Positions 4,758 through 62,946 of a stretch of DNA of 64,000 nucleotides are shown in pieces. Where the stretch lies: assembly GCF_004010195.1 (NCBI RefSeq), contig NC_057751.1:5667299-5731298 (forward strand), read 5' to 3'. Numbering within the stretch: the stretch's first letter is position 1; every line of letters starts with the position of its first letter. A program made the translations under genes and the position numbers. The stretch is from Chiloscyllium plagiosum (lineage: Eukaryota). Below the pieces are notes generated by a model. That model was not told the DNA's origin, ran no database searches, and saw nothing but the letters and a program-made list of their open reading frames with translations.

Positions 4758-7223
4758 TCAGGTATTAGCCACAATATACAAACAAAAACAAAAGAGCTAT
4801 TATACCATCTCAGTACAACACACCGGCACACGCACAAGCAAATCCCCTTCACTATCTCCTCAATTACAAAGTTAATTCCACATGCAATTTCTATTTCTAA
4901 GCCGCATTCAATATCTTTGCAAATGATCAAACGACTTTGAAGCAAATACCGAATTGGGCAAAATGAAAAAAAAACACATGAGGGTTATAAGCTACAAAAC
5001 AAAAACATCTGGAATTAGGTGAAGGGGACTTGGCCGGTATTGGGAAATGGGCAGGGTTTCAGATAATCTTAAATTCATGGGTAGGGAGGTTGGTGTGGTG
5101 GACAGGAACATGTTGGTATCGTCAAGCTTCAGGGTAACAAAAGACTGGATGTGCGTTTCAGCAGCAATTCAGCTTGGGCCTATACATAGTCAAATGATGT
5201 TACAGGGGACCAATGTAGAGTGTTAATGAGGCTGCAGAGATTCTGCACGCACCTGACAATGTATGTGCTAAATCAGAGAATCACCTTTAATTTTGGTTCC
5301 CAGTCCATAATACAAAAACGTTATTTTAAAAATGCTTACAAGGTAGCAAAGAAAAGATTCATTTCAGAGTGTAAAAAGCGATGATGGAGAAGGAAGCGTG
5401 ATTGAAACCATGGCATCTAGCCTGGAAAGCAAGTGATTAAAAGGGAACCTCATCCTGGTGCATGGAATATTAATTGTCACATGGAACCTTGAGGGTTTAA
5501 CTTTACAGTCAGGAAAATATGACCAAAAGCATGAACCACAGTGAAGTCAAACTAAAGCAGGCAGTAGCAAGAGAACCTTTTTATGGGTAAATTACCTGCC
5601 ATACAGGGTATGAGCAACAAATATTACTGCATAGTTAAGGAAATTGCAAATTCATCATTGCATAGTTAAGGAACTGAGAATTTGAACAGTTTTTTTTAAA
5701 ACCCTCAACTTGAATTACAACTTACACCCTTGACTTGCGGTACGACTCACAACCTACCAGGTTCTCTTCTCAAGGTGAACACTGATTACTTCCTCTTGGC
5801 CAGACTCCCTTCCCACCACAGTCTCAGTCTTTTCCTTTCCAAGAACCAATGCCAATTTCATCCTTTAACTTCCTGAGTGTACAGTTGCATCATTGACCAG
5901 CATGTTCAACAATGAGCAGCTCAGGAGGAGAGACAGTTCTGATAAAACATGATGGCCAAGGGCCATCATTGTTTGCCTCAAGACAGGAGCAAGGATTCAA
6001 CACTCAGTACAGAAGGCTGCAGGGCATAAGGTTCAATTAGTTAATTGTCTAGCCTCCTAACAGAAACTAGAGCACAAGGCATCAGATATCATTTATTTGT
6101 CATCAGTGGTTTCAGTTGTGGATAGGTCCTTTCACAGCATCTGGATATGTGCAGAAGAAAAATGTGACTTGATGATCTACATAAACTGCTAAACAAATCT
6201 CTACAACTGTGTCTTTTTTGTCATTGTCGATCCCCAGCTTAACTTTGATAGAAACTCAGCCTTTATTGTGTTTACATGTCTTGATAATGAGGAATTTTAA
6301 AAACCCGTTTCCTGAAACATAATTACAACAGCATGCCAAGAATCTGCTTTCTTAAACTCCTTCCCAGGAATTGTAAATCCCACTGGTGCCAGCAACAAGT
6401 CACCACGCTCAAACTGTTGCCACTCTGCAAGAGCAAACCTGAGGCAATTTATGAATAGAACATAGAAAACGTAAAGTCACTGCACAGATTCCATCCACAA
6501 CGTATCTAAACCTACTGAATTCATTTCCTCCAGCACAAAAAATGCTGTCTTTAACAGGGGTGAAGAATCGCATCTTGAGACAGATCACAGTATCAAGAAA
6601 TTTAGAGAGCGACTCATATTATTTTTTTGTGTATTATTTTCATTGGTGGACACATTCACCAAGAGACAGAGACAGTGAAGCAATGCCAGAAGATAAAGTG
6701 AACAAGACCAGGTTCTCAACGAAAAGTACTTAATCTCAGCAACAGAATGTTATACAATCATCTGGACCAAGGCAGAAAAAGTATGTTGGATTTCTACACC
6801 CTGTTTGTATCCAGTCTTCATGCTTGTATGCAAGGTCATGAAGCAACTTGATGAGGGGACCATATTGGCATAGTCCCTGAACCAATGATGAAAAGGCCCA
6901 GACTCATACTCTGGGGACATGGATGCAAACTTCACCACAGCAGCTTCTAGACTTTAAGTTCAATGTGGATCTAAAAATAACCTTGAATTGAAAACTCATC
7001 TCAGTAATGGTAATCATGAAATTATCATCCTTGTTCTATCATCTGGTTTCCTAATGTTATTTCGGGACAGAACTGTGTTAGCCTTAGCCGTTTTGGCTTA
7101 CATGTGACTGCACACCCACAGCAACGTGTTTGACTCTCAACTGTTCTCTGAAATCACAAATTCATATCAGTATTTTGGTGCAGAAAAAGGCCATTCAGCC
7201 CATCCTGTCTGCTTCAACCTAAT

Positions 7224-7444
7224 CAAGAATAGAGTGGTGCTGGAAAAGCACAGCAGGTCTGGCAGTATCCGAGGAGCAGGAAAATCAATGTTTCTGGCAA
7301 GAGCCCTTCATCAAGAATGAAGAAGGACTCCTGCCGAAAACCTCGATTTTCCTGCTCCTCGGATGCTGCCTGACCTGCTGTGCTTTTCCAGCACTGTTCT
7401 AATCTTGACTCTGATCTCCAGCATCTGTAGTCCTCACTTTTGTC
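7224..7444. mobile_element. Palindromic Penelope-pLTR-derived short element
   Basis: Inverted arms GTGCTGGAAAAGCACAGCAGGTC...GACCTGCTGTGCTTTTCCAGCAC, flanked by the 15-bp direct repeat CTGCTTCAACCTAAT (7209-7223, 7445-7459). Confidence 0.85.
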
Positions 7445-10400
7445 CTGCTTCAACCTAATGCCACTTGCGTTCTTTTAAAACAGTCGAGCAAATCCCTCAG
7501 TTCAATTGGGGATCAACAACAAATGCTGGCCTTCTCAGCAACGCTCACATCCCATGAAAGAATAAAGAAAAAAAATCTTCAGTGTTGTAATCCAAGTTGA
7601 TAGGTGGAATACCATGCACTGTATAAGATGTAGAGTGATGACGTTGCAGGAAAACAAAAAGCAGAATTAATTGAGGCAGAGATCAGTTTCCCACACTGAA
7701 GCAAATGCTCCGGACGGTTCGGATTGTTGTGTTTCAATTTTCTGTGCGTGTGCTGAAAAATCATGCAGGATGCTACAGGAGTTGGATGCTATAGGCCATG
7801 CCCCAGTCCAACAATTGCAATAATAAAACACAGAATTGTGGAAGCTGAAGATCTGAAACAAAAACAGAAAATGGAGAAACTCAGCAAGCCTGGCAGATCT
7901 GTGGAGCAAAAGTAGAGTGAAGAGTCACTGTGAAATGCTGACAGGGAGGTGAGAGGAATGTGTGCCTGCTAGAGGCATCTGGCTGGAGGTGGCAGACATG
8001 ACAGCTTATGATCCTTTGGCTGTGGGTACTGATGGTGTGAGTAATGATTCCTTAATCGCTGTAGATCTGCAGAACCTGGTTTTATCAGCTTCTCAACCTT
8101 GAAGTTCTGTTGCAGGGAATCCAATATGTTTCACATGGAAACTATTACTAATGTAAATTAGGAACATGTCGGGGGTTGGGGGTTGGATGGCAGCAGAACT
8201 GAACTTTTCCACAGGGAAGGACAAAGCGAATGGCTTTTGGGAATGACAAAGTCAAGAGAAAGAATTAATTCAATTAGCTACAGTTTCTGCTGATCATCCT
8301 ACTCTATTATGAATGTTCCCTACTTGGAGTGGTCCCATGCATCATTTTCAGCAGTGAGCAGGGAAGTGACCTGTGAAGCCAGCAGTGTGTAAGGCACACA
8401 AAGCAGTAGGCTGTTAATCACCTCACCAGTTCTCCTGGCAACAAAACGACTGGCCTCTTCGAAGCAATTAATAATGGTTTGTCTGAGAACATGAACTTAG
8501 TGTGCAGGGTGCTCAATACAGATCTCTTTCAATCAGCGGATAACAAAGCTGAAACATGGGCAATGTCTGAGACATTGATTTCATCTTGACGGTGTCTGCA
8601 TTTCAAGTACTAATTGGAGCTGCTTGGTGATATGACTGTCACTGCTACAGGAAGAAGAGTTTCACGATCTCTTTAAGCCTGGATATTATGGAACAATTTC
8701 ACTTTTGTTTTTATTGCAGAGGTGCGCAGAATGACATCCTGTTCAAGCAGGTTATTCCCGGTTGTTTTACCTCATCAACTTGGAAAAAAAATGCATCCCT
8801 ACAAGTGTTTTAAAATGCAGCTTGTCCATCACATGCATCAGTCTCCCTTCCCTAGTGTCTAACCCAGGATACTTGAACCTCGAGGTCAACTGAAACATCA
8901 CCAAGGATGCTGGAGGACAAGTCATTCATACAGATACAGTACAAACCTGGCCAGTTTAATCAGAGCCATTAATTCATGGTGTCAACTGCTCAGTAGTGCT
9001 TTTTTGACACAGAATAACAACATTTGAAGCACTACCATGTTACAAGCCCATCTGTTTCTTCACAAAAAGAGAAAGCTATGGCCAAAGGTACGTAAGGCAG
9101 GTGCTATTCTCCCTAATGAGGGACACTCTGATAACATATGATTCCAAATTTATGACCATGGGGTACATGATATTTAGTCCATTTCTGTTTTAGAATCAAC
9201 AACGAATGCCTGGACAAAGAAAATGTGTTGCTCTGCAAAATCAGCACTTCTGAACTTTGTGCATGAAGAGAACAAACAATCATCCATTCACCAACCTCCT
9301 GGGCTGAACACTGATCAGGAGAAGTTGAATCAGTGAGATTCATACCAAGTTAGGTTGAAGGCTGGGAATAACTCATATCCTGACTTCCCAAAGCCTGCCC
9401 ACCATCTGTTAGGCACAAGTCAGGTGTCCTCGATAAGTACACCTCCAACAGCACTCAAAAAGCTTATAAGTAATTCAGACGAAGCAGCTCAACTTATTGG
9501 CACCTCATTCACTACCTTCAACATTCATTCCCTTCACAGGGACAGTAGGTGTACACCATCAAAAAGATGAATTTTCAGCAACTCATTAAGCTGCCAAGCA
9601 ACTCAATTGTGCGGACCAATAACAGCAGACATGCAGTGAGTCAAAAAAACTACAAATTCCCCTTCAAATCTTACACCTCCCTACCTTGGAACTATAATCC
9701 TGTTGTTGGGCCAAGTTATTGCAATCCCTGGCAAACAGCATTGTGCATGTGCCTACACTGCACAGAACGCAGTTATTTCCCACCATCTTCTTGAGGACAA
9801 TTAACAACATAAATCCTGACCCCATCGGTGATCCCACATGCCATTGATCATGAAAAGAATTTACATCCAAATTTCTACAAATTTGTTTCCTGATTTGGTT
9901 GCCCAACCTCAAAGGCTTTGGTTTGGTGAGAAAGCCACCTCCGCACTGGGTAATGTTTCACACGTCTGCAGCTGAGTGTAATATTCTTGGAGGACGGAAA
10001 TTATCTCAATATTGATCTTCTCTATCTATTTGGTTTCTTTCTTTATCCTCCCCAGAAAACAGAGCATACTGCTGTTATTTTCCACTGGAAGACTTTAGCA
10101 AGGGTCCACTCAAACAATGTCCGACTGAAGCCCCAAAGTTTAGGTGACATCCAATTCAAGGATCTGGAGGGGCATCTACTCATTTTTTACATCACTGGAA
10201 ATAGCGAAGTGTTTCTGTACACACTGCAAACTCAAACAAGTAACTTCCATCGCAAAACAATACTATTAACAAGCATCATCTCAACAAGCATCAGATATTT
10301 TATATAACCTGTTTCCATTTTCTGATTCAGGTTCACCAAGTGAGCCATAGCAAGAGATCTAGTTCCCCTGTCCACCTACCAATGTCTCAAAGATGGTGCT

Positions 10401-11399
10401 TCATTGAAATCTGTCTTGTGGTTTTATATCTGTTGTCTTTTAGCCTCCAGCATCTGGTCAGTCATGCCTCATCGTTGCCAGCTTCCTCCGGTTTCTCAAT
10501 ACTAAGCAACACTGGATTGACAAACCTACTCACTTGATACGTGCAACACATTCAAGACAGGAGCAATGGCTCATTCACTCTCGGTGGTTTTTGGAGGTTG
10601 GTGGTTGTAAGTTCCTGGTCATTTCAACTGAAGATAACAATCAAATGCTTCCATTTGGGTGCCGCCAACATGGCAAATCATATTGATTTTAACCATAAAA
10701 GCTTTCAAGAGGAGCAATGAAAAAGGACTGAAAAATGTTAAGTGGAAAGATGAGCCAAGAACAATGGGAAATGGACTGCAAACACTTCTGCAGCTACCCA
10801 TGGTCAAATCTTTTCTTTCACTTGGCTTCTTTGAGAAGATGATGAAAACCATTGATGCAGGTAATCTTTGTGTACACCAGTATCTCTGTTCAACATTGAA
10901 GAAGCCAAGCCAAGAAATAACTTTAATTAAAAGTCCATCTTAATCAAAACACATCTGAAAAATACTCATCATCACTGCTGATGTCTCAAAGGACATCAGA
11001 ACTATGAATGTACCATCAGACGCATAATTAATTGGAACTTATCATCATCACTGAAAATGAAGTCTCAAACTACCTGCTTTAATAAAATTCAAAAGACAAA
11101 ACCTGTTATTCATACTGCACATTTCACAAACTCAGGGCATCAAAATGTACTTTGCTACCTAAGGCCTCTGAGAAGTCTTGCATGGAAAGCTTGTTCCCTT
11201 AAACCTCAATGCCCTCATCAACAGATAACTTTAGAATCACAGAACTGTTACAGCTCAGAAGGAGCCCATACAGGCCTTCGTGTCTGCACCAGTTCTATTC
11301 CCAATCACCAATGCCTGCCTTTTCCCTCTATCCCTCCACACCATTTCTATCCAAATTCAATATTGAAATTGATTATGGCTGGTTAAAGGATAATAGTGG

Positions 11400-11607
11400 G
11401 AGACAAGCAGGAGGCTGGAAGAACACAGAAAGCCAGGCAACATCAGGAGGGGGAGAAGTCAACGTTTCAGGCGTAACCCTTCTTCAGGGGAAGAGTTCCA
11501 CCCAAAATATTGACTTCACCATCTTGGATGCTGCCTGGCTGGTTGTGTGCTTCCAACCTCCTGCTTGCCTAACTTGGATTCCAGCATCTGCAGTTTTTTT
11601 GTCTCTA
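11400..11607. mobile_element. Palindromic Penelope-pLTR-derived short element (related subfamily)
   Basis: Inverted arms. Minus strand 11461-11487 reads CTGAAGA-AGGGTTACGCCT-GAAACGTT. Flanks are imperfect GGATAA(A)TAG repeats. Confidence 0.75.
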
Positions 11608-11694
11608 ACGGATAAATAGAGGCCAAGGAAAATTGCTGCTCCTCCTCTCCACCATAGCATTGCGAGATATCTTATTTGAGGAGGCAGATGGGGA

Positions 11695-11860
11695 TTGCCA
11701 TCTCAAAGATAGCACCTTCGACAGTGCAGTACTCTCTCGGTTACTGCAATTGGAGTGTTAGTTTTTTTTTTCGTGCTCAGATCTCTGGACAGGGATTTGA
11801 GCCTATTACCGTCTCCTCCAGATCACAAAGAAGTTCCCAAAGGCTGACACTACTGCTGAA
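11695..11860 (-). mobile_element. Deu-domain SINE 5' portion (tRNA-derived head)
   Basis: GATAGCACCTTCGACAGTGCAGTACTC...GGATTTGAGCC pattern typical of this SINE group. Confidence 0.55.
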
Positions 11861-12194
11861 TCAAAATGTCACAAAGCCGAGGTAACTGAATTCTCTTCAG
11901 CAACTCTGCATTTGTTCAATATAATGCAATACACTCCCAGACAAATTCAAACCATCAATCGATCACTGAAACAAATCAATGATCTGTCTCTCTTTCAAAT
12001 GCTGACAGACCGTGTTGGGCGATATTGTATTTGAATTTCCGTGTTCAGAGATGCCATTGCACATCTGCAGAGCAGATGGGACTTCAAACTGGGCCTCCAA
12101 GCTCAGAGGTAATAGCATCACCACTACACTACAAGAACCGTTCAGACCTAGCATGTAAACACAGACAATTCCAAAAGACACCTGTTTATATAAT

Positions 12195-12399
12195 TTAGAT
12201 TAGAGTGGTGCTGAAAAAGCACAGCAGGTCAAGCAGCATCCGAGAAGCAGGAAAATTGACATTTCATCAGGAAAGGCTTTTGCCCGAAACATCGATTTTC
12301 TTGCTCCTCAGATGCTGCCTGACCTGCTGTGCTTTTCCAGCACCACTCAAATCTAAACTCTGGTTTCCTGCATCTGCAGCCCTCACTTTTGCCTACGTA
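12195..12399. mobile_element. Palindromic Penelope-pLTR-derived short element
   Basis: Same arms as 7224-7444, flanked by TTTATATAAT (12185-12194, 12400-12409). Confidence 0.85.
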
Positions 12400-12827
12400 T
12401 TTATATAATGTCATGCACATCTCCAGGACAGACTAACCTTTTTGAATAGCTGCCCCTGCTATTTTGTGTTCTCAATTGACAGTTCATCTATTTGTTATGG
12501 TCCTGTAATAGATGAATCTTCTCCAGATCTTCAAATTGCCACATCTTTTACAGGTAGTAACATGGAGTTATTCCTGGCCACCTGAATTGATGCTCCCACA
12601 TTTTACACTGTGAGCTGAAATTTTGAAGTAACCACTTCCTGTCGTGCAGCACTCACTAAGTACTACACTGAGGTGACATCTGAGATCTCAAATTCTGGAT
12701 GAAGATTTCAACCTGTAAATGTAGCCATTGAGCTGAGTGTCATCAGATCATTCAAATAACAGTCAAACCTAAAAAACTCTGACCCATAACCTGTACAATA
12801 ATATGGATTCTTCTTGTAAATTACAAT

Positions 12828-13147: not shown

Positions 13148-13749
13148 ATTCTCTGAGAATGAACTGCGTCCCCTTTTGGGAAAGAACAACGCACACTGAG
13201 TAAACCAATTCCTGGGTAGCTGGATATCTGAGTGCGCAAAATATGTCAATCCAATTCCAAATTTTGAGCATTCCCACTATTTCTTGTTTTACTGCATTCA
13301 GCCCGACACAACTGATTAAAAAGCAACACTGAAAATAAAAAGAAATTCCACAGTGGGCAAATCTTAATGATTGGTTAAACAGAAAATATTTTTTCCAGTG
13401 TCATTCCTTCCTCCCAATGTGACCTCCTGGTGACTCTTCAATCCTTTGTGGTTTTCAACATTTCCTCTTGACTTCAGTGGAAATGTGTATATGTAAATGT
13501 AAAACAGATTTTCTGATACCATTCAAACTAATTTGTATACTCCCTGACCAAAAATACTGAGAGGGACAAGATACAAAGGAGATTTGGGAAAAAAAAACAC
13601 TGAATGAGTTTGTGGTGCAAGTGAAACCTGAGCATCAAAAATAGATTTGGAGATTTGTCTGAAAATGAATGTGACTGTAAGGATCATAAACATCCTCTGG
13701 GAATTACCGTCACATGCAGTGTACAAGCAATGACCACTACAGAATGAGT

Positions 13750-13852
13750 ATTGTGATGAAGGGTCACTGGACTGGAAACCTAACTCTGATTTCTCTCCAC
13801 AGATGCCGCCAGATCTGTTGAGATTTTCCAGTAATTTCTGTTTTTGTTACAG
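13750..13852 (+). mobile_element. Penelope pLTR fragment (another subfamily; related piece on minus at ~7825-7920)
   Basis: GATGAAGGGTCACTGGACTGGAAAC followed by CTCTCCACAGATGCCGCCAGATCTGTTGAG. Confidence 0.55.
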
Positions 13853-18096: not shown

Positions 18097-18112
18097 CAGG
18101 GCCGCACCTCAC

Positions 18113-18314
18113 CTTCAGCCACCACCTCCTCCACAGTGACCTGCTGCCGGCCCACACTGAACACCCGGCCGATGAAGCCGCTGCCGGGGCACAAGCCGCC
18201 GCTCCCGCCGCTGCTGCCGCCGCCGCCGCCGCCTCCTCCTCCTCCGCCGCCGCCGCCGCCTCCTCCCGAACCCGAGCCCGCCGCCTCCCGCCGGGAGTCG
18301 AAGAATTTCTTCAT
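18113..18314 (-). CDS. AAK1: AP2-associated protein kinase 1, first coding exon (67 codons + 1 nt, phase-1 intron)
   Basis: Translates [16 protein letters not shown](G17)[35 protein letters not shown], matching the AAK1 N-terminus ([10 protein letters not shown]...[23 protein letters not shown]) rather than BMP2K. It ends at a canonical G|GTGAG donor inside the kinase Gly-rich loop. I found no further AAK1 exon in 1-18112. Confidence 0.95.
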
Positions 18315-18944
18315 CACTCGGCGGTCACTCTCCGCTTTTTCTTCTCTCGCCCGCCACGAACCCGCGCGGCCGGGCAAAACAAAATAACGCCGGTTGTGTG
18401 TGGTGTAAGATATATAGATATATATATACTTCTTTAAAAGAAAATTATCGGGAACGAAATGATAATCGATCGAGTGTTAAAAGCAGGCCTGTCTCGCGCC
18501 GCCGAGCCGGGCCCAGCCGGGACGGTTATGGGGATGGGGTTGTTTGGGATGGATGGATGGGGGGTGGGAAGGAAGGGAAGAGACGGGGGAGGGAATAACG
18601 GGGCGGACCTAAACCGGCGCTCGCTCGCTCTCTCTCTCTCGCCAGTCAAATCCCGACACGAAGGCCGGACCGAAATAAGGTGGACACAACGCGACTGATG
18701 CGCGTGTTCCCCTCCGCACGCATTGGTGAGAAGTCCGAAGAAAGGACGCAAAGCGCGTTTGTTTTGTGACGTCGGGGGAAAAGACAAGACACGGACGGAA
18801 TCCTGTCAAACTATTTTTTTTTGCCATGGATGGGGGAGGTCTGCGGGCGCGTGTGGGACGAACGGTGGTCATGACAAACAAGAGGCATGACGGGGATTGT
18901 CGTTCATAAAGGGAGGGTCGGGCGAGCTGGAGGCTGGCGGGTGG

Positions 18945-29669: not shown

Positions 29670-30900
29670 AGATCAGAGCAGGAGTATGTCACTTGACTCC
29701 TCAGCCTGCTCCACCATTCAGTATAATCATGGCAGATTGTTGAACTCAATGCCCTAATTCTCTACCCCCCCCCTCCTTAATTCAAACCCCTTAATCCCTT
29801 TTGCGACAAGAGTGATGTGTTAAAACACATAATGTTTTGCCTCAACCATTTTCTGTTACAGTCAATTCCACAGGCTCATCACTGTTTGGTGAAGATATTT
29901 CTCTTCATCTCTGTCTGAAAAGGTTTCCCCCTTATCCTTGAACTATGACTCCTGGCTCTGGACTTCCCCACCATTCGGAACCTCCTTCTGACGTCTAACT
30001 TGTACAGTCATGTTAGGATTTTATAGGTTTCTATGAGATTCCCATCCTTCCCTCCCCTTAGCCCCATCCCCCCTCATTCTTCTGAAATCCAGTGAATATA
30101 ATCTTAACGGACTCGATCTTTTTTCATATCAGTCCTGGATTTTTAGAATCAATTTGATAAACCTTTGCTGCACTCCCTTGACAGAAAGAACATCCTTCCT
30201 CAGACTAGACCTGCACACAGCATTCCAGGTATGGCTTCACCAATGCCCTGTATAATTACAACAATAAATCCTTATCCCTGAATTCGAATCGTCTCACTGT
30301 GAAGATCAACAAAGAGTTTGCCATTTTTACTGCCTGCTGTGCCTGAGCACTGAGTGGGTGGTGCATGAGGACTCCCATGTCTCACTGAACATTTTCCTGT
30401 CTCACTTTACAGCCATTCAAATCATAATCTGTCTTCCTACTTTTAGTGCCAAAGTGAATGACCCGATATTTATCCACAGTATGCTCCATCTGCTATGCAT
30501 TTGCCCATTCACTCAGTCTGTACAAATCAAACTGCGACATCGCTGCATCCCCCTCACAGTTTTCCCAACCACCCAGCTCTGTGTCATCTGCAAATTCTGG
30601 GGTAGTACATTTAGTTCCGTCACATAAATCATGAATGAATATTGTGAATAGCTGGGGTCTAAGTACCAATCCTTGTAGAAGCTCACAGGTCACTGCCTAC
30701 CATTCAGAAACAACCCTTTTTATTTCTACTTTTTGATTCCTGTCTACAAACCAATTTTCTATCCATTTCAGTGCACTATCCATGATCCCATGTGCTTTAA
30801 TTTCATGCAATCATCTCTTAGTTGAGATTTTGTTGAAAACCTAGAAGTCGAAATAAACCAAATCCACTGTCTCCATCAATCAATGCTTCTGTTTACATAG
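29670..30900 (-). mobile_element. Old CR1 LINE RT/3' fragment
   Basis: ORF 30493-30693: QGLVLRPQLFTIFIHDL...FADDTELGG. Confidence 0.8.
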
Positions 30901-32084: not shown

Positions 32085-33700
32085 ACTGGAAATGTGTTGC
32101 TGGAAAAGCGCAGCAGGTCAGGCAGCATCCAGGGAACAGGAGAATCGACGTTTCGGGCATAAGCCCTTCTTCAGGAATGAGGAAAGTTTGTCCAGCAGGC
32201 TAAGATAAAAGGTAGGGAGGAGGGACTTGGGGGAGGGGCGTCCGAAATGTGATAGGTGGAAAGAGGTCAAAGTGAGGGTGATAGGTCAGACTGGGGTGGG
32301 GGCGGAGAGGTCGGGAAGAAGATCTCAGGTTAGGAAGGNNNNNNNNNNNNNNNNNNNNNNNNNNNNNNNNNNNNNNNNNNNNNNNNNNNNNNNNNNNNNN
32401 NNNNNNNNNNNNNNNNNNNNNNNNNNNNNNNNNNNNNNNNNNNNNNNNNNNNNNNNNNNNNNNNNNNNNNNNNNNNNNNNNNNNNNNNNNNNNNNNNNNN
32501 NNNNNNNNNNNNNNNNNNNNNNNNNNNNNNNNNNNNNNNNNNNNNNNNNNNNNNNNNNNNNNNNNNNNNNNNNNNNNNNNNNNNNNNNNNNNNNNNNNNN
32601 NNNNNNNNNNNNNNNNNNNNNNNNNNNNNNNNNNNNNNNNNNNNNNNNNNNNNNNNNNNNNNNNNNNNNNNNNNNNNNNNNNNNNNNNNNNNNNNNNNNN
32701 NNNNNNNNNNNNNNNNNNNNNNNNNNNNNNNNNNNNNNNNNNNNNNNNNNNNNNNNNNNNNNNNNNNNNNNNNNNNNNNNNNNNNNNNNNNNNNNNNNNN
32801 NNNNNNNNNNNNNNNNNNNNNNNNNNNNNNNNNNNNNNNNNNNNNNNNNNNNNNNNNNNNNNNNNNNNNNNNNNNNNNNNNNNNNNNNNCCATCTGGGTT
32901 GGACGTTTTTGGAACTGGTTCTCCTGGGAGCAGATGCGGCGGAGTCGAAGGAATTGGGAGAATGGGATGGCGTTTTTACATGGGGCAGGATGGGAGGAGG
33001 TGTAGTCCAGTTAGCTGTGGGAGTCGGTCGGTTTGTAGTAGATGTCCGTGTTGATTCTGTCACCTGAGATAGAAATAGAAAGGTCGAGGGAGGGGAGGGA
33101 GGAATCTGAGACTGTCTAGGTGAATTTGAGGTCGGGGTGGAAGGTGTTGGTGAAGTGGATGAACTGTTCAACCTCCTCGTGGGAGCACGAGGCGGCGCCG
33201 ATACAGTCATCGATGTAGCGGAGGAAAAGGTGGGGGGTGGGGCCAGTGTGTGGTTGCGGAAGATGGATTGTTCCACATATCGTACGAAGAGGCAGGCATA
33301 GCTGGGGCCTATGCGGGTGCCCATGGCTACTCCTTTTGTTTGGAGGAAGTGGGAGGATTGGAAGGAGAAGTTGTTCAGGGTGAGGACCAGTTCAGTCAGT
33401 CGAAGGAGGGTGTCTGTGGAAGGGTACTGGTCGGTACGGCGGGAAAGAAAGAAGCGGAGGGCTTTGAGTCCTTCGTGATGGGGGATGGAGGTGTACAGGG
33501 ACTGGATGTCCATGGTGAAAATAAGGCGTTGGGGACAGGGGAAGTGAAAATCATGGAGCAGGTGGAGGGCATGGGTGGTGTCCCGAACGTAGGTGGGGAG
33601 GTCTTGGACTAAGGGGGACAGGACGGTGTCAAGGTATGCGGAGATGAGTTCGGTGGGGCAGGAGCAGGCGGAGACAATGGGTCGGCCAGGGCAGTCAGAT
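32085..33700 (-). mobile_element. Penelope-like element (RT, pLTR with hammerhead motif), spanning an assembly gap
   Basis: RPIVSACSCPTELIS...FTMDIQSLYTSIP...QTKGVAMGTRIGPSYACLF, frameshifted before YIDD. The 3' end at 32085-32180 equals one arm of the palindromic elements. Confidence 0.9.
32339..32889. other. Assembly gap (N run)
   Basis: Run of n characters. Confidence 1.
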
Positions 33701-40500: not shown

Positions 40501-40510
40501 GTGGCGTGAT

Positions 40511-40836: not shown

Positions 40837-40839
40837 CTT

Positions 40840-43590: not shown

Positions 43591-43659
43591 ATAAATCTGT
43601 CCAATTAAGAGGAAGAAAAGAAAAACCATTTGAAATTGTGAAACAAACAATGAAAACTA

Positions 43660-45830
43660 GACTAGATGGCATTGAGTTTCACAAGGAAGAGGTGTGAGCA
43701 ATACTGGGAAGTGTGGAAATAGCTAAGTCCCCAGGGCCGGATGGGATTTATCCTAGGATACTCTGGGAAGCCAGGGAGGAGATTGCAAAGCCTTTGACTT
43801 TGATCCTTATGTCATTGTTGACTATAGGAATAGTGCCAAAAGACTGGAGAATAGCAAATGTCCCCTTGTTCAAGTATGACAGCAGAGACAACCTTGGTAA
43901 TTAGAGACCAGTGAGCCTTACTTCGGTTTTGGTGAAGTGTTGGAAAAGGTTAAAAGAGATAGGACTCAATCATCTAGAGAGGAATAAGTTGATTAGGGAT
44001 AGTCAACACGGTTTTGTGAAGGGTAGGTCGTGCCTCTCAAAACTTAGAGTTCTTTGAGATGGTGACCAAACAGGTGGATGAGGGTAAAGCAGTTGATGTG
44101 GTGTACATGAATTTCAGTCGGGCTTTTGATAAGGTTCCTCATGGTCGGCTATTGCACAAAATGAGGAGACATGGGATTGAAGGTGATTTAGTGGTTTGGA
44201 TCAGAAATTGGTGAGCTGAAAGAAGACAGAGGATGGTTGTTGATGGGAAATATTCATTCTGGAATTCAGTTTCTAGTGGTGTACTGCAAGGATCTGTTTT
44301 GGGGCCACTGCTGTTTGTCATTTTTATAAATGATCTAAATGAGGGTGTAGAAGGATGGGTTAGCAAATTTGCAGATGACACTAAGGTCGTTGGAGTTGCG
44401 GATAGTGCTGAAGGATGTTGCAGGTTACAGAGGGACATAGATAAGCTGCAGAGCTGGGCCAAGAGGTGGCAAATGGAAATTAATGCAGAAAAGTGTGAGG
44501 TGATTCATTTTGGAAGGAGTAACAGGAACGCAGAGTACTGGGCTAATGGTGGGATTCTTGGTAGTGTGGATTAACTGAGAGATCTCGGTATCCGTGCACA
44601 TAGTTTCCTGAAAGTTGCCACCCAGGGTTGATGGGGTTGTTAAGAAGGCATTCTGGATCAGTGGTGCTAGAAGAGCACAGCAGTTCAGACAGCATCCGAG
44701 GAGCAGTAAAATCGACGTTTCAGGCAAAAGCCCTTCATCAGGAATAAAGGCAGAGAGCCTGAAGCGTGGAGAGATAAGCTAGAGGAGGGTGGGGGTGGGG
44801 AGAAAGTAGCATGGCGGAAGATGAGGTGTTCTTCCTCCAGGCGTCTGGTGGTGAGGGAGTGGTGGTGAAGGAGGCCCAGGACCTCCATGTCCTTGGCAGA
44901 GTGGGAGGGGGAGTTGAAATGTTGGGCCACAGGGCGGTGTGGTTGATTGGTGTGGGTGTCCCGGAGATGTTCCCTAAAGTGTTCTGCTAGGAGGCGTCCA
45001 GTCTCCCCAATGTAGAGGACACTGCATCGGGAGCAACGGATACAATAAATGATAATAGTGGATGTGCAGGTAAAACTTTGGATGTGGAAGGCTCCTTTAG
45101 GGCCTTGGATGGAGGTGAGGGAGGTGGTGTGAGCGCAAGTTTTGCAGTTCCTGTGGTGGCATGGGAGGGTGGGTTGTAGGCGGGCGTAGACCTGACCAGG
45201 TAGTCACGGAGGGAACGGTCTTTGCGGTCTTCCATCCGATGTGTTAGCCTTTATTGGTAGAAGGATTGAGTTTTGGACCCATGAGATCATGCTGCAGCTG
45301 TACAAAACTCTGGTGCAGCCACACTTGAAGTATTGCGTGCAGTTCTGGTCACCACATTATAGGAAGGATGTGGAAGCTTTGGAAAGGGTTCAGAGGAGAT
45401 TTACTAGGATGTTGCCTGATATGGAGGGAAGGTCTTATGAGGAAAAGCTGAGGGACTTGAGGCTGTTATCCTTAGAGAGAAGAAGGTTGAGAGGTGACAT
45501 AATTGAGATATATAAGATAATCAGAGGGTTAAATAGGTTGGGCAGTGAGACCCTTTTTCCTCAGATGGTGATGGCTAGCACACGGGGACATAGCTTTAAC
45601 TTGAGGGATGACAGATATAGGACAGATGTTAGAGGTAGTTTATTTACTCAGTGAATAGTAGGTGCATGGAACACACTGCCTGCAACAGTAGTAGACTTGC
45701 CAACTTTAAGGACATTTAAATGGTCATTGGATAGGCATATGGACGAGAATGGAATAGTGTAGGTGAGATGGGCCTGAGATTGGTTCCACAACATCGAGGG
45801 CCAAAGGGCCTGTACTATGTTCTATGATAA
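43660..45830 (+). mobile_element. CR1 LINE 3' half (second subfamily), interrupted by a Penelope
   Basis: [30 protein letters not shown]...FADDTK, YCVQFWSPHYRKD. Confidence 0.92.
44652..45236 (-). mobile_element. Penelope 3' fragment (GIY-YIG remnant + pLTR) nested in CR1
   Basis: YCIRCSRCSVLYIGETGR-type GIY-YIG codons (~44995-45050). The pLTR carries CTGATGA-AGGGCTTTTGCCT-GAAACGTC on minus at 44714-44741. Confidence 0.85.
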
Positions 45831-46892: not shown

Positions 46893-48670
46893 TCGTGATA
46901 ATTTTGCTTGTTGTTTGTATAGGGTCTTTCAAGTTAATTAGCTGCTGTTTTAGTGTGTTGGTGGGTTTGTGGGCTACCATGATGCCATGTGGTCTGAGTT
47001 GTCTGGCAGTCACTTCCAAGATGTATTTGATGTAAGAGAGAGTGGCAAGGGTTTCTGGACATGTATTATCTGCTTGTCTGGGTTTAGAGTTCAAAAATCG
47101 GCGTGCTGTGTTCATTGGGTACCCTTTCTTTTTGATTACACTATATAGGTGATTTTCCTCTGTGCTGCAGTGTGTGTTGGCTCATTGAAATAATATTCTA
47201 ATGCAGCTTTGTTTGTGGATGTTGGATAATTGCTTCTGTAGCTCAATATTTGGTCTGTATGTGTTGTTTTCCCATAGACGCTGGTTTGAAGTTCCCCATT
47301 GGCTGTTCACTGTACTGCAACATCTAGGAATGGCGGTTTGTTCTTGTTTTCCTCCTCTTTAGTGAATTTTATGCCAGTAAGGGTAGTACAGATGGTCTTG
47401 AAGGTTTCCTCTAATTTGGGTGATCTTATAGAGGTTTACAAAATTATGAGGGGCATGGATAGGATAAATAGGCAAAGTCTTTTCCCTGGGGTCGGGGAGT
47501 CCAGAACTAGACGGCATAGGCTTAGGGTGAGAGGGGAAAGGTATAAAAGAGACCTAAGGGGCAACTTTTTCACGCAGAGGGTGGTGCGTGTATGGAATGA
47601 GCTGCCAGACGAAGTGGTGGAGGCTGGTACAATTGCAACATTTAAGAGGCATTTGGATGGGTATGGGCTGGGTTTGGAGGGATATGGGCTGGGTGCTGAC
47701 AGGTGGGACTAGATTGGGTTGGGAAATCTGATCGGCATGGACAGCTTGGACCGAAGGGTCTGTTTCCATGCTGTACATCTCTGTGACTCTAGTGATGACA
47801 AAGGTGGCATCCACATAGCGGACCCAAAGTTTGGGTTGGATGGTTGGCAGAGCTGTTTGTTCGAGTCTCTGCTAAGAACCCTGATATTGGAGATCCCATG
47901 GGTGTTCCATTGATTTGTTTGTAGGTTTTGTTGTTGAAGGTGCAGTGGGTGGTAGGGCATAGGTCCACAAGCTTGATGATACTGTCCTTGTTGATGAAGT
48001 TGTTGGTTTTTGGTGTATGTGTCTTTGGGTCGTCTAATAATGTAGTCAGTGTTTCCTTGGCCAGGTTGATGTTGACAGGTGTGAACAGGGCTGTTACATT
48101 AGAGGAGACCATTATTTCATCCTCTTCTATCTTAGTGTCTTTGGTCTTCAGGAATTCTTGGGTGGAGTGGATGGAGTGGTGTGAGGCTTTTACTAAGTGT
48201 TTTAGTCTTTGGTGTAGCTCCTTGGCCAATCTGTACATTGGTGTTCCAGTTTGCGAGACTGAGTCTGAGGAGGGCTCCTGGCTTGTGAAGTTTGGGTAAT
48301 CCATAGAAGTGTGGTGTGTTGGATTCATCTGGTTTCATTTTTTGGAGGCTGGTCTTATTTATTTCTCCAGATTTCTGAAGTTTTTTGAGTAGGTCTCTGA
48401 TTTGGTTCTCTCGTTGTGGGGTTGGGTCTGAGCATCTGCAAGTAGTGTATTTGCTTTCTCAATGTAGTCGCTTTGATTTAAGATGACTGTCAAGTGTCCT
48501 TTGTCTGCAGATAGGACAATATTTTTATCTTTTTAAAGTCTTTTCAGTGCTTTCCTTTGTTGTGTTTTGAGTATGTTTCCTTCCTTTTTCCTGCTTAACG
48601 TTGGTGTGACTGCCTGTCTGATGGTTTGCTGGATTTCTTCTGTGAGTTGGTTGTCTTTCATTTCTGATTT
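46893..48670 (-). mobile_element. Penelope-like element (second clade) RT region, interrupted by a CR1 tail
   Basis: PHFYGLPKLHK, MVSSNVTALFT, YKQINGTPMGSPISG in ORFs 47789-48338. Confidence 0.88.
47419..47790 (+). mobile_element. Young CR1 3' end nested in the Penelope
   Basis: GDLIEVYKIMRGMDR...FFTQRVVRVWNELP and tail ...CTGTACATCTCTGTGACTCT. Confidence 0.9.
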
Positions 48671-49355
48671 CTGAGCAACAAAGCCAAACAAGCAGACAAA
48701 ATATGTCCAGAAACCCTTGCCACTCTCCCGTACGTCAAAGAATCTCAGAAATGACTACCAGACTATTCAGACCCCTTTGCATCATCATAGCCCATAAACT
48801 CACTAACACACTAAAACAGCAGCTAATGAACTTGAAAGACCCTATACACACAAGTAAAACTAATGTCATCTACAAAATACCTTGCAAAAACTGTAACAAA
48901 TACTACATCGGACAAACAGGCAGAAACCTAGCCACCAGGATACATGAACATCAACTAGCCACAAAACAACACGTGTCACTCTTACTAGTATCCTTACATA
49001 TGGATGAGGAAGGCCACTATTTTGACTGGGACAACACATCCATCCTAGAACAAGCCAGAGACATGCACGAGAATTCCTAGAAGCATGGCTTTCCAATCGG
49101 AACTCTATCAACAAACATATTGACTTGGATCTCATTTACCACCCCCCTGAAAAAACGAACAGAAAATGACATCACCATAGGAAATGGTGTCACCACAGAA
49201 AATGATATCACCAACCCAGGAAACCCAAACATATAAATAGAAAGCGGGCTACACCACCATTGCTTCATTCAGCGGCTCACTAAAGATGTGACTTTGTATG
49301 GTGATGAAACATCTGAAAATGAACCTTCCAACTCAGCAAGCAAACCTACATCCGT
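48671..49355 (+). mobile_element. Inverted Penelope 3' segment (GIY-YIG endonuclease + pLTR)
   Basis: NVIYKIPCKNCNKYYIGQTGRNLATRIHEH; an inverted duplicate of 46893-47090. Confidence 0.9.
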
Positions 49356-49847
49356 TCTTCATCATTAACAGTGAAGTCCTCTATTTCAATGTTTGATTGC
49401 ACCATCAATGTATGTTTGAATTGGTCTTCACGTGGAAGAGAAAGTATTGATCAACTCATGGCATCCAGTAGATTGTAATTAATCAGCACCTTCACCATAC
49501 TTGACCTGAAACAAGAAATTTCTTGGGATTTCAAATTAATGTTCAGGATTTCTAAAGCCACTATTAATCAACTGAATGTGCCACCCATTCTTTGTGGCCC
49601 AGTCCTGCCTGTGTAACAGAACACATATTCAAGGGAATATGATGGAGTTGTCGAGAATATGAGTTCATAGATGTGATTCTTTCAGTTCAATTTTGTCTGG
49701 CTTTGTTTGACTTATCTTTTGGAAAACATCCCCAACTAGAATGGTTTATTGCACCTGGCAGTAATCTTACATGAAAATTGTACTAACAGCATAGTAGAAT
49801 TTTGTGACAAGGAAATATTTTGGCTGACAGTACTATAGGGTATTACA

Positions 49848-50059
49848 GGAGAAAGTGAGGTCTGCAGATGCTGGAGATCAGAGCTGAAAATGTGTTGCTG
49901 GAAAAGCGCAGCAGGTCAGGCAGCATCCAGGGAACAGGAGAATCAGCGTTTCGGGCATAAGCCCTTCCTGAAGAAGGGCTTATGCCCAAAACGTCGATTC
50001 TCCTGTTTCCTGGATGCTGCCTGACCTGCTGCCCTTTTCCAGCAAAACATTTTCAGCTC
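49848..50059. mobile_element. Palindromic Penelope-pLTR-derived short element (young)
   Basis: Near-perfect inverted arms almost identical to the pLTR at 32092-32175, flanked by AGGGTATTACA (49837-49847, 50065-50075). Confidence 0.9.
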
Positions 50060-51309
50060 AGTACAGGGTATTACATACCTATCCATACAGTTTGTGATCT
50101 GCTTGAGTTCTCTGAATCTTTCAGTGGTGTTCCCATTTCCAAAATATTTCCTTAAGAAGTTCAGTTGGGAAATTAGCTTCACCATCTTTGAATTAAATTG
50201 CATGGAAGGAAACTATTTGATCCATCATTCCTGTGATGGCTGTTTGACAGAGATTTCCTTTGTCTTCTCTGTTTTTCCCATTCCCTAACTTTGTATTTAA
50301 GGATATAGGCAAGTGTGTTTTCATAGTTGCTGATGCTTCCACATTCTCTGGGCAGTTCATTCCAGATCATTACTCACCATGTAACAAATCTTATCCTTTC
50401 ACCTCTCGTTCTTTTGCCAATCATCTTGATTCTATGTCCTCTGGGTTTCAATCATCCTGCATGAGAAAGGACTTCCTCTCAGTCTAGCTATCAACTCATA
50501 AATCTACTAATGGAATTTAAATGTCCCAATCATATTCTCTGCTCAAAGGAAAATGATCCCCATTCTTTAATCTCTCTTCACAGCTCCAGTGACTGACTTA
50601 TCCATGTTTCCAAACTGTTTTGTGCAAGGAACCACAGTAACCAATGACACATTGTTGAAAAATCTCTTCAAATGCTCACCAGGGTTTGGAGATCTGCTGT
50701 GACACACATTTGAAGGCATTTTCCAAACTTCTGATAAGTATGTAAGCTGTAAAAAAGGAGACAGTGCGATTATTTGTGGATCATCATTTTTATTAATGTG
50801 AATAGGAACAAAAATACAATATTAATAGGTTTAAACATATGGTAAAATATAAAATTGGGTAACTCTTGAGACCCACCTCAAGACCTCACTTTGAAAACCA
50901 GAAACTGAATGTGTAAATCAACATTTGGAAAACCATAGAAAGTTGCAAGGTGTCATGTTTGATGTTCAGGAGCTTAGGATGTGTTTGTATGTGCAAAATC
51001 GCCATTATAAATAGTGGTAAGTTTCTGATCTTGTCATATCATTTAATATGATCAGTCACTTCTTTAATTGTGCATCAAATGAGTTTTTCAGAAGCAGTCA
51101 TGTCATCAGAATTGAGGATTTTTACTTGCCTGGACAACATTCAGTACCATTTGCAACTCCTCAGATCATAAAGCAGACTATATTCACATTCAGCAAGACT
51201 TGGAAATTTCCTGCTTGATTGATATGTGGCAGGCAGCGTTCACACTACATATGTATCAGGAAATGACCATCTACAACAAAAGAGAATCTAATCTTCCCTG
51301 ATATAAAAA

Positions 51310-51515
51310 TGATGTGGAGGTGCTGGTGTTGGACTGGATGGACAAAGTTAAAAATCACACAACAGGTTGTAGTCTAATAGGTTTATTTGGAAGTGCTAGC
51401 TTTCAGAGTGCTGCTCCTTCATCTAGTTACCTGATGAAGGAGCAGCGTTCTGAAAGCTCGTACTTCCAAGTAAACCAGTTGGAGTATAACTTGGGTATTG
51501 TGTGTTTTTTTTAAA
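51310..51515. mobile_element. Palindromic short element of a different sequence family with a hammerhead-like core
   Basis: Inverted arms, CTGATGA-AGGAGCAGCGTTCT-GAAAGCTC at 51431-51459, and flanks CTGATA(T/C)AAAAA (51298-51309, 51516-51527). A half copy lies at 52330-52420. Confidence 0.8.
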
Positions 51516-53554
51516 CTGATACAAAAAGGCATCATCATCATTGATAGCCCCATGATCTGAAACTGATTGTTTTTATGAGGCTTGTCCAATGATGACAAAA
51601 GAATGTCAAAAGCTGAGGGTTCTGCAGAAAGTAACTCATCTCCTCACTTCCCAAAACCTGTCCACCATCTTCAACGGACAAGTGTGATGGAGTACTTCTC
51701 AGTTGCCGAGATGAGCGTGCCCAACATGATTGAATAAGGTTCAACACCATCCAGGACAAAGCAACCCAATTGATCAGCTGTCCATCCACCATCAGAAATA
51801 CCTTCTCATTACCAATGATGAGTAATGGCAACTGCTATTAAGAATTAACTCACCCAGGTCCTATGACTGCAGCTGTCAACCTGCAATCTCTAATGGGGTG
51901 GAAATAGCAGGTGGATGGGAGTAATTGCAACTTCCCCTCTAAATCACACACCATCCTGACTTGGAACGATATTGCCAGTTCCTTCACTTGCTGGTGAAAA
52001 TCCTGACAGCATTGTGGGCGTACTGACACCACACGGACTGTAGCACCATAAACTTTTGAATGACCGTTAGGGATGTAAAACAAATGGTGAACTAATGAAA
52101 AGCACATTTCTTTCATCAAGTTTTCTTTTCAATAGAACCATGGGACTGAACTGTGAAACTTCACAATGTTTTAAAAGAATTGCTGAGTAAAAAAATACAT
52201 TTTGTGAAAGCCTTTCATTTTTCAGTCATAGAATAATTTGCAAGAAATATGAAAATAAAGGAAAAACATAATTTATAATGGTTGAGAGGACAATTTTGAT
52301 TGGTTGGCAGAATGCGCCAGTTAATGATGTTAAAAATTACACAACACCAAGTTATAATCCAACAGGTTTATTTGGAAGTACTAGCTTTCGGAGTGCTGCT
52401 CCTTCATTGGGTAGTTAATTATGACTGACAAGTTACTGTGAAGCTACATTTAAATTTTAAACAAAGCAGATTGACTTTGATTAGTAACACCAAATAATGT
52501 CCTGTGAAATGAACCAGAGAATGGTTGTCACCTGCTGTCTTCCATTGAAACAAATGCAGTGTGCACATGTTCTTTCTGTCTCCAAAGAACAGGGCCCAGT
52601 GTATTAATAATACATCTGGCTTCCAGTGTGGACAAATGCACCACAATGTGAGACTGGCTGATAATCCCAAATTGGCTGTCAGCATTATTCTTTGCATGGA
52701 TACAATTCTGTCACAAATATTGTCAAAACTGCTGAATCACATTTTATCTTGAACACTTGGGAGGACAGCACCCTATTTGACAAAATGTATTTTTTTTTAT
52801 CAGAGATACTCAAGTTTTAAACTAAAACTAGAACAAATTATGTTCTGATCAGTCTGCACACAACCAATGCCAGTTTATGTTGTAAATGGAAGCAAAAGAT
52901 ACTCCAGTTTGTTGTGACTTGCACATGAAAAATAGTTTGCATGAAGTCTTATAGAAAATCCAGATTTGTCAGTGGTAATTGTGGAATGCATTTATTCTTG
53001 AAAATACTTTTGTGTTTTCTATTGAAAACACGTTGTTTTTTCAGTGAAACCAAAATTTTCTTTCTGTGTCGATAGTAAGTCATTGTGTGACAGGCTTGGA
53101 GATATTAAACCTGACGAGTTAAACCATTATAATTATGTATGTCAGACCCTGCAGCATACAACATAAATCAACTTTAAAAGACACAAAATACAACCATGCA
53201 TCTGCTTTTATTTGCCCTTTTTGCTTCAACTCAATATATATTATGAATAGGTTCCAATTACTGCTGTCTACCAATCTTGGGAAAAAGATGGATTTGCTCA
53301 TGGTTCAGAAGTGATCTTGACAAGTACTTGCAAGAATGCATGGAAAAGGACCAGTTGATCCTGAGCACTATTTAAAGTGAAACTGTGAACATAAGACAGT
53401 AGAATGTTAGAAAGCTTTTCTTCATACGAAGTGACTCATCAAGAATTTTTTTTTGTTAAGGATAATTAAGACTAAAAACCTGAATTTAATCAAGAAACAG
53501 TTTTGTAAAGTGATAAGTGGCTTGTGGATCTCCCTCATGGAAATAAGGAAAATA

Positions 53555-61054: not shown

Positions 61055-61591
<537 letters not shown>

Positions 61592-62580: not shown

Positions 62581-62946
<366 letters not shown>

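What the first reader, a model, noticed from the sequence alone, without database searches (positions are those of the whole stretch)
7209..51527. Family of ~200-bp palindromic, direct-repeat-flanked elements built from hammerhead-bearing Penelope ends
Seen: five non-coding hairpin elements (7224-7444, 11400-11607, 12195-12399, 49848-50059, 51310-51515). Each is two inverted copies of a Penelope-type terminal repeat meeting at a CTGAnGA...GAAA motif. Each has its own 10-15 bp flanking direct repeat (CTGCTTCAACCTAAT, TTTATATAAT, AGGGTATTACA, CTGATAYAAAAA; imperfect at 11.4 kb). The arms of the first four match the ends of coding Penelopes in this window (32085-32180, 44660-44745). The 51.3 kb copy has the same architecture with unrelated sequence. 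Established: Penelope pLTRs carry minimal hammerhead ribozymes and often form inverted ends. Inference: these are either non-autonomous retrozyme-like or MITE-like units mobilised in trans by Penelope RT/GIY-YIG, or a stereotyped extreme-truncation-plus-inversion product whose junction is set near the ribozyme.
Basis: partly seen in the sequence, partly recalled or inferred. Interest (0 to 1): 0.72.

Follow-up and report, generated by a model that had tools for sequence, protein, structure and literature searches.

The report
Twin-primed Penelope stubs marking RNA start
These five ~210-base hairpins are real insertions of a known kind of jumping gene (Penelope-like) in a shark-like genome, each likely built on landing from two short DNA copies of the start of the element's RNA joined head to head, which would explain how these elements make their inverted ends.

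Summary
All five hairpins are real. Four have convincing target-site duplications; the one at 11.4 kb is weak. The 49.8-kb insertion is absent in a second organism, which keeps one copy of a 14-bp target. Each hairpin joins a short arm to an arm with a 33-40-nt 'tail', the known Penelope inverted-end layout without the ORF. They come from four sequence groups and their junctions differ in detail, so they are not one propagating family. One side of the junction is fixed at the hammerhead's 5' edge, about 32 nt upstream of the predicted cut site. 12 of 14 arms in the window start there, and read data pile up there, often with an extra G that suggests a cap. Most likely the reverse transcriptase starts at its two internal sites near the RNA's 5' end, once from each cut DNA strand, and runs off. 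The ribozyme would be locked in the hairpin. A few junctions at 14-40 times single-copy depth leave re-copying open. This scan has noted the same type many times, in this genome and in others.

The parts
7209..7223 (.). E1 left target-site duplication (15 bp)
   Evidence: exact repeat of 7445-7459
7224..7318 (-). E1 short arm (no tail), reaches the fixed 5' edge
7318..7444 (+). E1 tail-bearing arm; tail about 7409-7444
7445..7459 (.). E1 right target-site duplication
11384..11396 (.). E2 left flank repeat (weak: 1 mismatch, 1 indel against 11606-11619)
   Evidence: 42 of 295 random pairs score as well
11400..11488 (-). E2 short arm, different family; strict hammerhead motif from 11487
11489..11605 (+). 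E2 tail-bearing arm; tail about 11571-11605
12185..12194 (.). E3 left target-site duplication (10 bp; right copy 12400-12409)
12195..12273 (-). E3 short arm with an internal ~15-nt deletion of hammerhead stem II
12271..12399 (+). E3 tail-bearing arm; tail about 12358-12394; 3-nt overlap with the short arm
49834..49847 (.). E4 left target-site duplication (14 bp)
   Evidence: empty site in organism B keeps one copy (X5 record 9)
49848..49967 (-). E4 tail-bearing arm; tail about 49848-49880
   Evidence: loose ends pile up at 49846-49849
49965..50061 (+). E4 short arm; core CTGAAGA 49968-49974; 3-nt overlap with the tail arm
50062..50075 (.). E4 right target-site duplication
51298..51309 (.). E5 left target-site duplication (12 bp, 1 mismatch; right copy 51516-51527)
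51310..51424 (-). E5 tail-bearing arm of an unrelated family; tail about 51310-51348
51425..51515 (+). E5 short arm; strict hammerhead motif from 51431
13747..13847 (+). solo arm of a further family, starts at the hammerhead's 5' edge; 9-bp flank repeat (1 mismatch)
   Evidence: flank repeat read by eye, not tested against chance
52330..52416 (-). solo arm of the E5 family, starts at the hammerhead's 5' edge; 11-bp flank repeat (1 mismatch)
   Evidence: flank repeat read by eye
32086..33699 (-). 5'-truncated coding Penelope-like copy: RT fragment, 551-N gap (32339-32889), 3' end without tail; exact 10-bp duplication 32076-32085/33700-33709
32143..32178 (-). minimal hammerhead of that copy: 5' edge at 32178, core 32174-32168, stem II 32166-32155, GAAA 32154-32151, predicted cut after 32147
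   Evidence: stem II pairing probability above 0.97 in the single arm
44652..45229 (-). 5'-truncated coding copy with linker CxxxxCxxC motif and GIY-YIG fragment, inserted in a LINE fragment; borders approximate

Best explanation
Each hairpin is an ORF-less insertion of a Penelope-like retrotransposon end, likely built at the moment of insertion from two short cDNAs copied from the 5' leader of an uncut, probably capped element RNA, one primed from each nicked target strand. Shown: target duplication, empty site, one tail arm plus one tail-less arm in 5 of 5, two fixed outer ends 33-40 nt apart, and inner ends at the hammerhead's 5' edge. Inferred: (1) the GIY-YIG endonuclease makes a staggered 9-15-bp cut in AT-rich DNA; (2) two RT domains start at the two internal sites that bound the tail, as shown in vitro for the anole element PAc; (3) because these sites lie only about 95 and 130 nt from the RNA start, the proximal copy runs off the 5' end, sometimes copying the cap as an extra G, while the distal copy stops slightly or variably short; (4) the two cDNA ends anneal through 1-3-nt microhomology, most often the natural TTC/GAA quasi-palindrome around the core, and are filled in. 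One priming event gives a solo arm; priming at the RNA's 3' copy of the same sites gives long coding copies. The ribozyme is a passenger here and is predicted to be locked in the hairpin.
For: One-sided tail in 5 of 5 (1 in 32 if each arm chose at random). Tail-less outer ends coincide within about 5 nt in E1, E3, E4 and both coding copies. Tail ends pile up at 49846-49849 in X1, X5 and X21 (table 7). PAc cleaves and extends both strands and starts RT at two internal sites that bound the tail, mostly on uncleaved RNA (PMC11167929, main text). 12 of 14 arms found in the window begin within about 12 nt of the motif's 5' edge. Depth falls across 32170-32180 by 8.6, 7.4, 2.5 and 18.7-fold in four runs. 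Loose ends behind 32177-32178 have low agreement (0.31-0.40) and, in X5, median length 255, as expected for unique flanks. 14 of the 15 joints shown have one side at 49965-49973 and the other spread over 49900-49929. Extra base at -1: 4 of 4 filler rows from 32178 begin with C on the + strand (G in sense) where the two coding copies have C or T in sense; the loose-end consensus at 32178 begins with the same base in 3 of 4 runs; 3 of 4 filler rows ending at 49965 end in GA. The edge base fits YYANWYY in both coding copies. Empty site with a 14-bp target. The 8 flank repeats are 60-100% AT against 58% for the window.
Against: No RNA 5' end was seen: no pile-up of molecule starts in X21 (table 6). 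YYANWYY is common (1.7-2.1% of positions upstream), and the E5 family edge does not clearly fit it. None of the five window hairpins shows the extra G. A subfamily with a natural G at -1, which would lengthen stem I, could mimic it. The depth step is an upper bound, because subfamilies diverge right after 32178 (compare 44746 onward), and it is only 2.5-fold in X5. Only 15 of 338 joints were shown, none of the 15 in the raw RNA reads, and short contigs cannot tell which arm has the tail. 5 of 7 X1 filler rows have the second side at 32144-32147, near the predicted cut site, which an uncut template does not explain. The ATG-led frame in the arms matched none of 120 homologous proteins, so that the ORF follows the tail is taken from PAc and Adineta, not shown here. 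In D. virilis Penelope the start lies 46 bp before an intron whose end abuts the hammerhead (PMC2377424 passages; PMC4209133), a different geometry.
Confidence: 0.6

Rival explanations
1. Twin priming as above, but the fixed edge is a strong RT stop or annealing hot spot (hammerhead fold, bound protein, or the TTC/GAA quasi-palindrome) and not the start of the RNA.
For: The edge follows the 5' boundary of stem I in three families (32086, 13750, E5/52330; read). E3 and E4, from different subfamilies, use the same 3-nt overlap. No RNA start was observed.
Against: RT has already passed the cut site and stem II when it stops. Solo arms stop at the same edge with no partner to anneal to. The extra G at -1 is not predicted.
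Confidence: 0.12
2. Solo-pLTR collapse: a full-size insertion (inverted pLTR, pLTR, ORF, pLTR with tail) lost its ORF later by recombination between the two direct pLTRs, as LTR elements leave solo LTRs.
For: The full-size layout with a 9-10-bp duplication and one-sided tail is described in Adineta (PMC3846280 passages), and deleting the ORF gives this structure. It would also give the solo arms.
Against: It needs most insertions to have been full-length and then to recombine over about 90 bp. The two coding copies of these families in the window are 5'-truncated with no upstream pLTR. E4 is young (95-96% to the family, absent in organism B) and already ORF-less.
Confidence: 0.12
3. A non-autonomous family that is copied as a whole palindrome in trans.
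For: E4-like junctions are bridged by other X1 contigs at depth 13-35 with 6-9 differences (table 8). Single odd junctions with specific fillers reach depth 155-448 against 11 for the unique flank (table 5c). pLTR sequences alone have moved host DNA in trans in Adineta.
Against: Four sequence groups share the layout. E1 and E3, of one subfamily, have different junctions. 338 distinct joints are listed. The arms would be locked in a hairpin (stem II probability 0.0 in E4 against above 0.97 in a single arm). High-depth joints may come from segmental or tandem copies, carriage inside another repeat, or library artefacts.
Confidence: 0.1
4. Fold-back self-priming: one cDNA folds on the small palindrome at the core and copies itself, as proposed for Adineta (antisense template).
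For: Proposed in PMC3846280 (Discussion passage). In E3 and E4 the junction is a natural 3-bp stem with a 5-nt loop. Both arms of an element share subfamily variants.
Against: The loop belongs to the tail-less arm, so a fold-back copy of it could not gain the tail. The short arm's outer end lies at the same fixed site as in non-inverted copies, which a self-copy has no reason to respect.
Confidence: 0.06

Closest known systems
Insertion unit of endonuclease-positive Penelope-like elements: inverted 5'-truncated pLTR, one-sided 30-40-bp tail, target duplication (Adineta Pen2a/Pen2/Pen3a, PMC3846280; general scheme PMC8557442 Fig. 2 legend)
   Same: Head-to-head arms, shorter inverted arm, tail on one end only, 8-10-bp (here 9-15-bp) duplication, junction overlap at a small palindrome.
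   Different: No ORF or spacer between the arms. Inner ends are tied to the hammerhead's 5' edge, these stubs outnumber coding copies (12 of 14 arms), and the layout recurs in four sequence groups within 45 kb.
PAc (Poseidon of Anolis) in vitro mechanism (PMC11167929)
   Same: Two internal RT start sites bounding the tail, about 80-120 nt past the hammerhead; both target strands cut and extended; AT-rich targets; uncleaved RNA used.
   Different: The main text does not describe joined head-to-head run-off products or a fixed 5' edge. The elements here carry a linker cysteine motif of Neptune/Nematis type.
Minimal type I hammerheads of metazoan PLEs (PMC4209133)
   Same: CUGAnGA core, one base before stem II, GAAA, palindromic remnant of helix III; mostly single motifs in truncated copies; dual motifs on opposite strands 100-700 bp apart were noted in Schistosoma.
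   Different: Here the two motifs overlap at the axis, most arms have lost the strict motif (2 of 10 keep it), and self-cleavage was not tested.
Metazoan non-LTR retrozymes (PMC7229834; bioRxiv 10.64898/2026.07.22.740005)
   Same: Non-coding, pLTR-derived, type I hammerhead, a few hundred bases.
   Different: Retrozymes are head-to-tail tandem repeats processed to circular RNA; these are single head-to-head pairs with a tail and a target duplication.
MITEs (definition recalled)
   Same: Short, non-coding, hairpin-forming, flanked by direct repeats.
   Different: Termini are not mirror images (tail on one side), duplication length varies from 10 to 15 bp, and the arms derive from a retrotransposon.

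Membership tests
EN+ Penelope-like element insertion | Arms homologous to the 3' repeat (pLTR) of RT + GIY-YIG coding copies | tested here: met
   E4 95-96% to the 32086 copy; E1/E3 82-88%; RVT_1 E 5.7e-6 and GIY-YIG E 0.0048, both below Pfam's cut-off; RT 85% to a Chiloscyllium protein. E2 only 60-68%; no coding partner for E5 in the window.
EN+ Penelope-like element insertion | Inverted 5'-truncated copy plus 30-40-bp tail on one end | tested here: met
   5 of 5; tails of about 36, 35, 37, 33 and 39 nt
EN+ Penelope-like element insertion | Target-site duplication created on insertion | tested here: met
   Empty site for E4 in organism B; flank repeats beyond chance in 4 of 5; empty sites not tested for E1, E2, E3, E5
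EN+ Penelope-like element insertion | Minimal hammerhead motif in the pLTR | tested here: met
   Strict scan found 4 motifs in the window, all in these families; Rfam gave no hammerhead hit at E up to 5
Neptune clade | [quoted passage not shown] | tested here: met
   CxxxxCxxC before GIY-YIG in the 44.7-kb copy, aligned with homologues; the feature is shared with Nematis (PMC8557442)
Neptune clade | Placement in the Neptune RT tree | not tested
   No tree with named references was built
Non-LTR retrozyme | Two or more head-to-tail units, each with a complete type I hammerhead | tested here: not met
   All five are single head-to-head pairs; 2 of 10 arms keep the strict motif
Non-LTR retrozyme | Self-processed linear and circular monomer RNA | not testable with these tools
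   Only poly(A) single-cell reads were laid (X21); no start or end pile-up
MITE | Terminal inverted repeats at both very ends and a fixed short duplication | tested here: not met
   One end carries a 33-40-nt tail; duplications of 10-15 bp
Propagating non-autonomous family | One junction and sequence shared by descent among copies | tested here: inconclusive
   Not met for the five window copies; some odd junctions are at 14-40 times single-copy depth in X1

The most novel reading that the evidence does not exclude
Some of these hairpins are not dead ends. Carrying the RT start sites in their tail arm, they are transcribed as passengers and copied again in trans as whole ORF-less palindromes, a head-to-head non-autonomous class of Penelope element distinct from tandem retrozymes. 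The odd junctions with specific fillers at 14-40 times single-copy depth would be its subfamilies, and the joints near 32144-32147 would record ribozyme cleavage of the template in vivo between the two priming events.
Probability: 0.2. Interest if true: 0.7.

Novelty: new variant of a known kind. Interest (0 to 1): 0.42.

Why it matters
How Penelope-like elements make their inverted ends and one-sided tail is stated to be unresolved (PMC8557442). These stubs are the smallest version of that structure, are very abundant, and give exact coordinates for two RT start sites and a likely capped RNA start. That makes twin priming testable both by a genome census and in the existing PAc in vitro system. 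For annotation, such hairpins can be mistaken for MITEs, miRNA precursors or active ribozymes. Three of them lie downstream of the first coding exon of an AAK1-like gene, likely in an intron, where they would form 80-95-bp double-stranded RNA if transcribed.

Tried and rejected
No whole genome is held for this window, so no genome-wide census with flanks was possible. Rfam at E up to 5 gave 8 weak hits and no hammerhead; the mir-722 hit on E4 (30 bits against 81) is a chance hairpin match. A 20-nt arm motif found 0 viral loci and 17 metagenome loci, all chance matches of 24 nt or less by blastn. No RNA holder was listed on record for E4; X22 laid 0 reads and is no test; X21 shows no depth on E4's unique flanks. 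The arm's ATG frame matched none of 120 proteins. Junction at the ribozyme's cut site: rejected for the window copies, since none of 14 arms starts there. My note of a 7-10-fold depth step in all four runs was wrong; recomputed values are 8.6, 7.4, 2.5 and 18.7. Dropped from the arm count: weak partial hits at 7872-7910, 60050-60096 and 30009-30044, and the decayed motif of the other Penelope-like family near 49260-49310, read by eye; counting that long copy gives 12 of 15. All 14 counted arms were in the training alignments. A recalled link to ancient palindromic human repeats was not confirmed: PMC5753468 lists UCON13 as Penelope but the passages say nothing of a hairpin. Search of PMC11167929's three held supplements found none of four terms; its Fig. 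S2 was not seen and may bear on the 5' edge.
Full report
Observation. All five elements exist as described. Self reverse-complement alignments span 165-186 columns at 74-92% identity, and E4 folds at -165 kcal/mol, z = -22. Flank repeats at the borders score beyond chance for E1, E3, E4 and E5 (reached by 1, 2, 2 and 4 of 295 random pairs) but not for E2 (42 of 295). The null was not masked for real repeats. For E4 the duplication is shown directly. Contig 9 of run X5 (organism B) lies on 49720-49833 and continues without a break on 50062-50199, so it lacks 228 nt: a 214-nt element and one copy of a 14-bp target. Run X1 (organism A) holds the filled left junction and has the base at 49836 that makes both copies identical.

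Host and parent. The RT fragment at 33223-33696 is 85% and 81% identical to two Chiloscyllium punctatum proteins, then Mobula and Stegostoma, so the host is likely a cartilaginous fish. Pfam gives weak RVT_1 and GIY-YIG hits below cut-off. A CxxxxCxxC motif precedes the nuclease, the linker feature of Neptune and Nematis (PMC8557442, passages). No tree was built.

Anatomy. In element sense, each arm starts at a minimal hammerhead (in the 32086 copy: 5' edge 32178, core 32174-32168, predicted cut after 32147) and runs about 95 nt to a fixed end, or about 130 nt if it carries the tail. All five hairpins pair one tail-less arm with one tail arm. Tail-less ends coincide within about 5 nt in E1, E3, E4 and both coding copies. 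Tail ends pile up at 49846-49849 in three runs (X1 534; X5 263, 915, 462; X21 563, 170, 174). This is the published Penelope layout of inverted arm, one-sided tail and duplication (PMC3846280, passages; PMC8557442) with nothing between the arms.

One family or many events? Over 57 core columns, E4's arms are 96% and 95% identical to the 32086 copy and 77-79% to the 44660 copy; E1 and E3 are 82-88% to both; E2 is 60-68%; E5 is unrelated. That makes four groups. The junctions differ in detail: E1 overlaps by one T, E2 has extra G, E3 and E4 share a 3-nt overlap although they are different subfamilies, and E5 is ambiguous. On E4 the read data list 338 joints, of which 15 were shown; 14 of the 15 have one side at 49965-49973 and the other spread over 49900-49929, 10 of the 15 occur in both organisms, and none in the raw RNA reads.

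Where the fixed edge lies. 12 of 14 arms found in the window begin within about 12 nt of the motif's 5' edge: ten in hairpins and two solo arms with their own flank repeats. None begins at the cut site. Depth on the 32086 copy drops across 32170-32180 by 8.6, 7.4, 2.5 and 18.7-fold (bins 32100-32149 against 32190-32219). This overstates the stub share because subfamilies diverge just upstream of the edge. Loose ends at 32177-32178 have 0.31-0.40 agreement, and in X5 a median length of 255, as unique flanks would. I proposed an RNA start there from an initiator-like match (note; weak, as the pattern covers about 2% of upstream positions). The two coding copies have C or T at -1. Copying of a cap as an extra G is recalled knowledge from other retroelements. 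None of the five window hairpins shows it, and a subfamily with a templated G is not excluded.

Mechanism. For the anole element PAc, both target strands are cut and extended, RT starts at two internal sites that bound the tail, and uncleaved RNA is the main template (PMC11167929, main text read to the start of Methods). If these sites lie near the RNA's 5' end, priming there can yield only 95-130 nt. Two such cDNAs, one from each strand, joined by microhomology, give the hairpin with one tail and a duplication. This accounts for hairpins, solo arms and long copies with one rule. The cut geometry, dual priming, the cap and the annealing are inferred. Simple fold-back (proposed in PMC3846280) does not give the tail, because the loop belongs to the tail-less arm. 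Later loss of the ORF between direct pLTRs gives the same end structure and remains open. In E4 the pairing probability of hammerhead stem II is 0.0 on both strands against above 0.97 in a single arm, so the ribozyme is predicted inactive.

Results that do not fit. No RNA start was observed (table 6 empty). Five of seven X1 filler rows have their second side at 32144-32147, near the cut site; the kind of joint is not stated there. Eleven X1 filler rows have depth 155-448 against 11 for the unique flank, some with long specific fillers. These may be re-copied units, segmental copies, passengers of other repeats or library artefacts; I could not tell.

What is in print. Nine searches on this topic found the general layout, the two start sites and the minimal hammerheads, but no paper on ORF-less twin-arm stubs with an edge fixed at the ribozyme's 5' boundary. 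The library lacks most subscription journals and Repbase reports, so it may be catalogued there. Seen: PMC4209133 results and discussion (it notes opposite-strand motif pairs 100-700 bp apart); bioRxiv 10.64898/2026.07.22.740005 introduction, part of methods and passages (its supplements are closed, and the word 'shark' does not occur in the text); passages only of PMC3846280, PMC8557442, PMC2377424, PMC7229834, PMC5753468 and PMC9004415. This scan holds 37 notes with the same words in at least 8 genomes; they are unchecked AI notes, not support.

Verdict. A real, abundant, minimal form of a known insertion type, with useful mechanistic detail: new variant of a known kind, interest 0.42.

Noticed in passing
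window 46900-49355: A second, unrelated Penelope-like family forms a long head-to-head inversion: RT on the - strand (about 47000-48660, interrupted by other repeats) joined to linker, GIY-YIG and 3' end on the + strand (48666-49355); arms 46911-47099 and 48666-48853 are 84% alike. Its junction lies in the ORF, and a decayed hammerhead-like motif is visible by eye near 49260-49310.
   Followed up: partly
window 18099-18377 (-) and 61055-62946 (-): An AAK1-like first coding exon (best solved-structure hits AP2-associated kinase 1) lies 43 kb from a Pitx-like gene (homeodomain and OAR; family name recalled). By recalled synteny this could be a fourth Pitx paralogue lost in mammals; one paper search found nothing.
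   Followed up: partly
arms of E1, E3, E4, 32086, 44660, 13750: An ATG about 20 nt past the predicted cut site opens a frame that stays open through the tail in E1 and E4 despite a 3-nt length difference, but has a stop in E3 and E2; no match among 120 homologous proteins.
   Followed up: partly
tails of E1-E5: The tails of three unrelated or distant families share a CCAGCAYCT-like core, a candidate recognition element for RT initiation.
   Followed up: no
table 5c, window 32144-32147: Five of seven X1 filler rows place the second side of a joint near the predicted hammerhead cut site.
   Followed up: no
window 60068-60111 and 7872-7910: Isolated partial pieces: an E5-family tail without its arm, and the 3' half of an arm of the 13750 family.
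   Followed up: no
run X21: 2622 poly(A) single-cell reads lie on the family in both orientations; depth is lower upstream of 32180, as in DNA runs, which fits passenger transcription of many copies.
   Followed up: no
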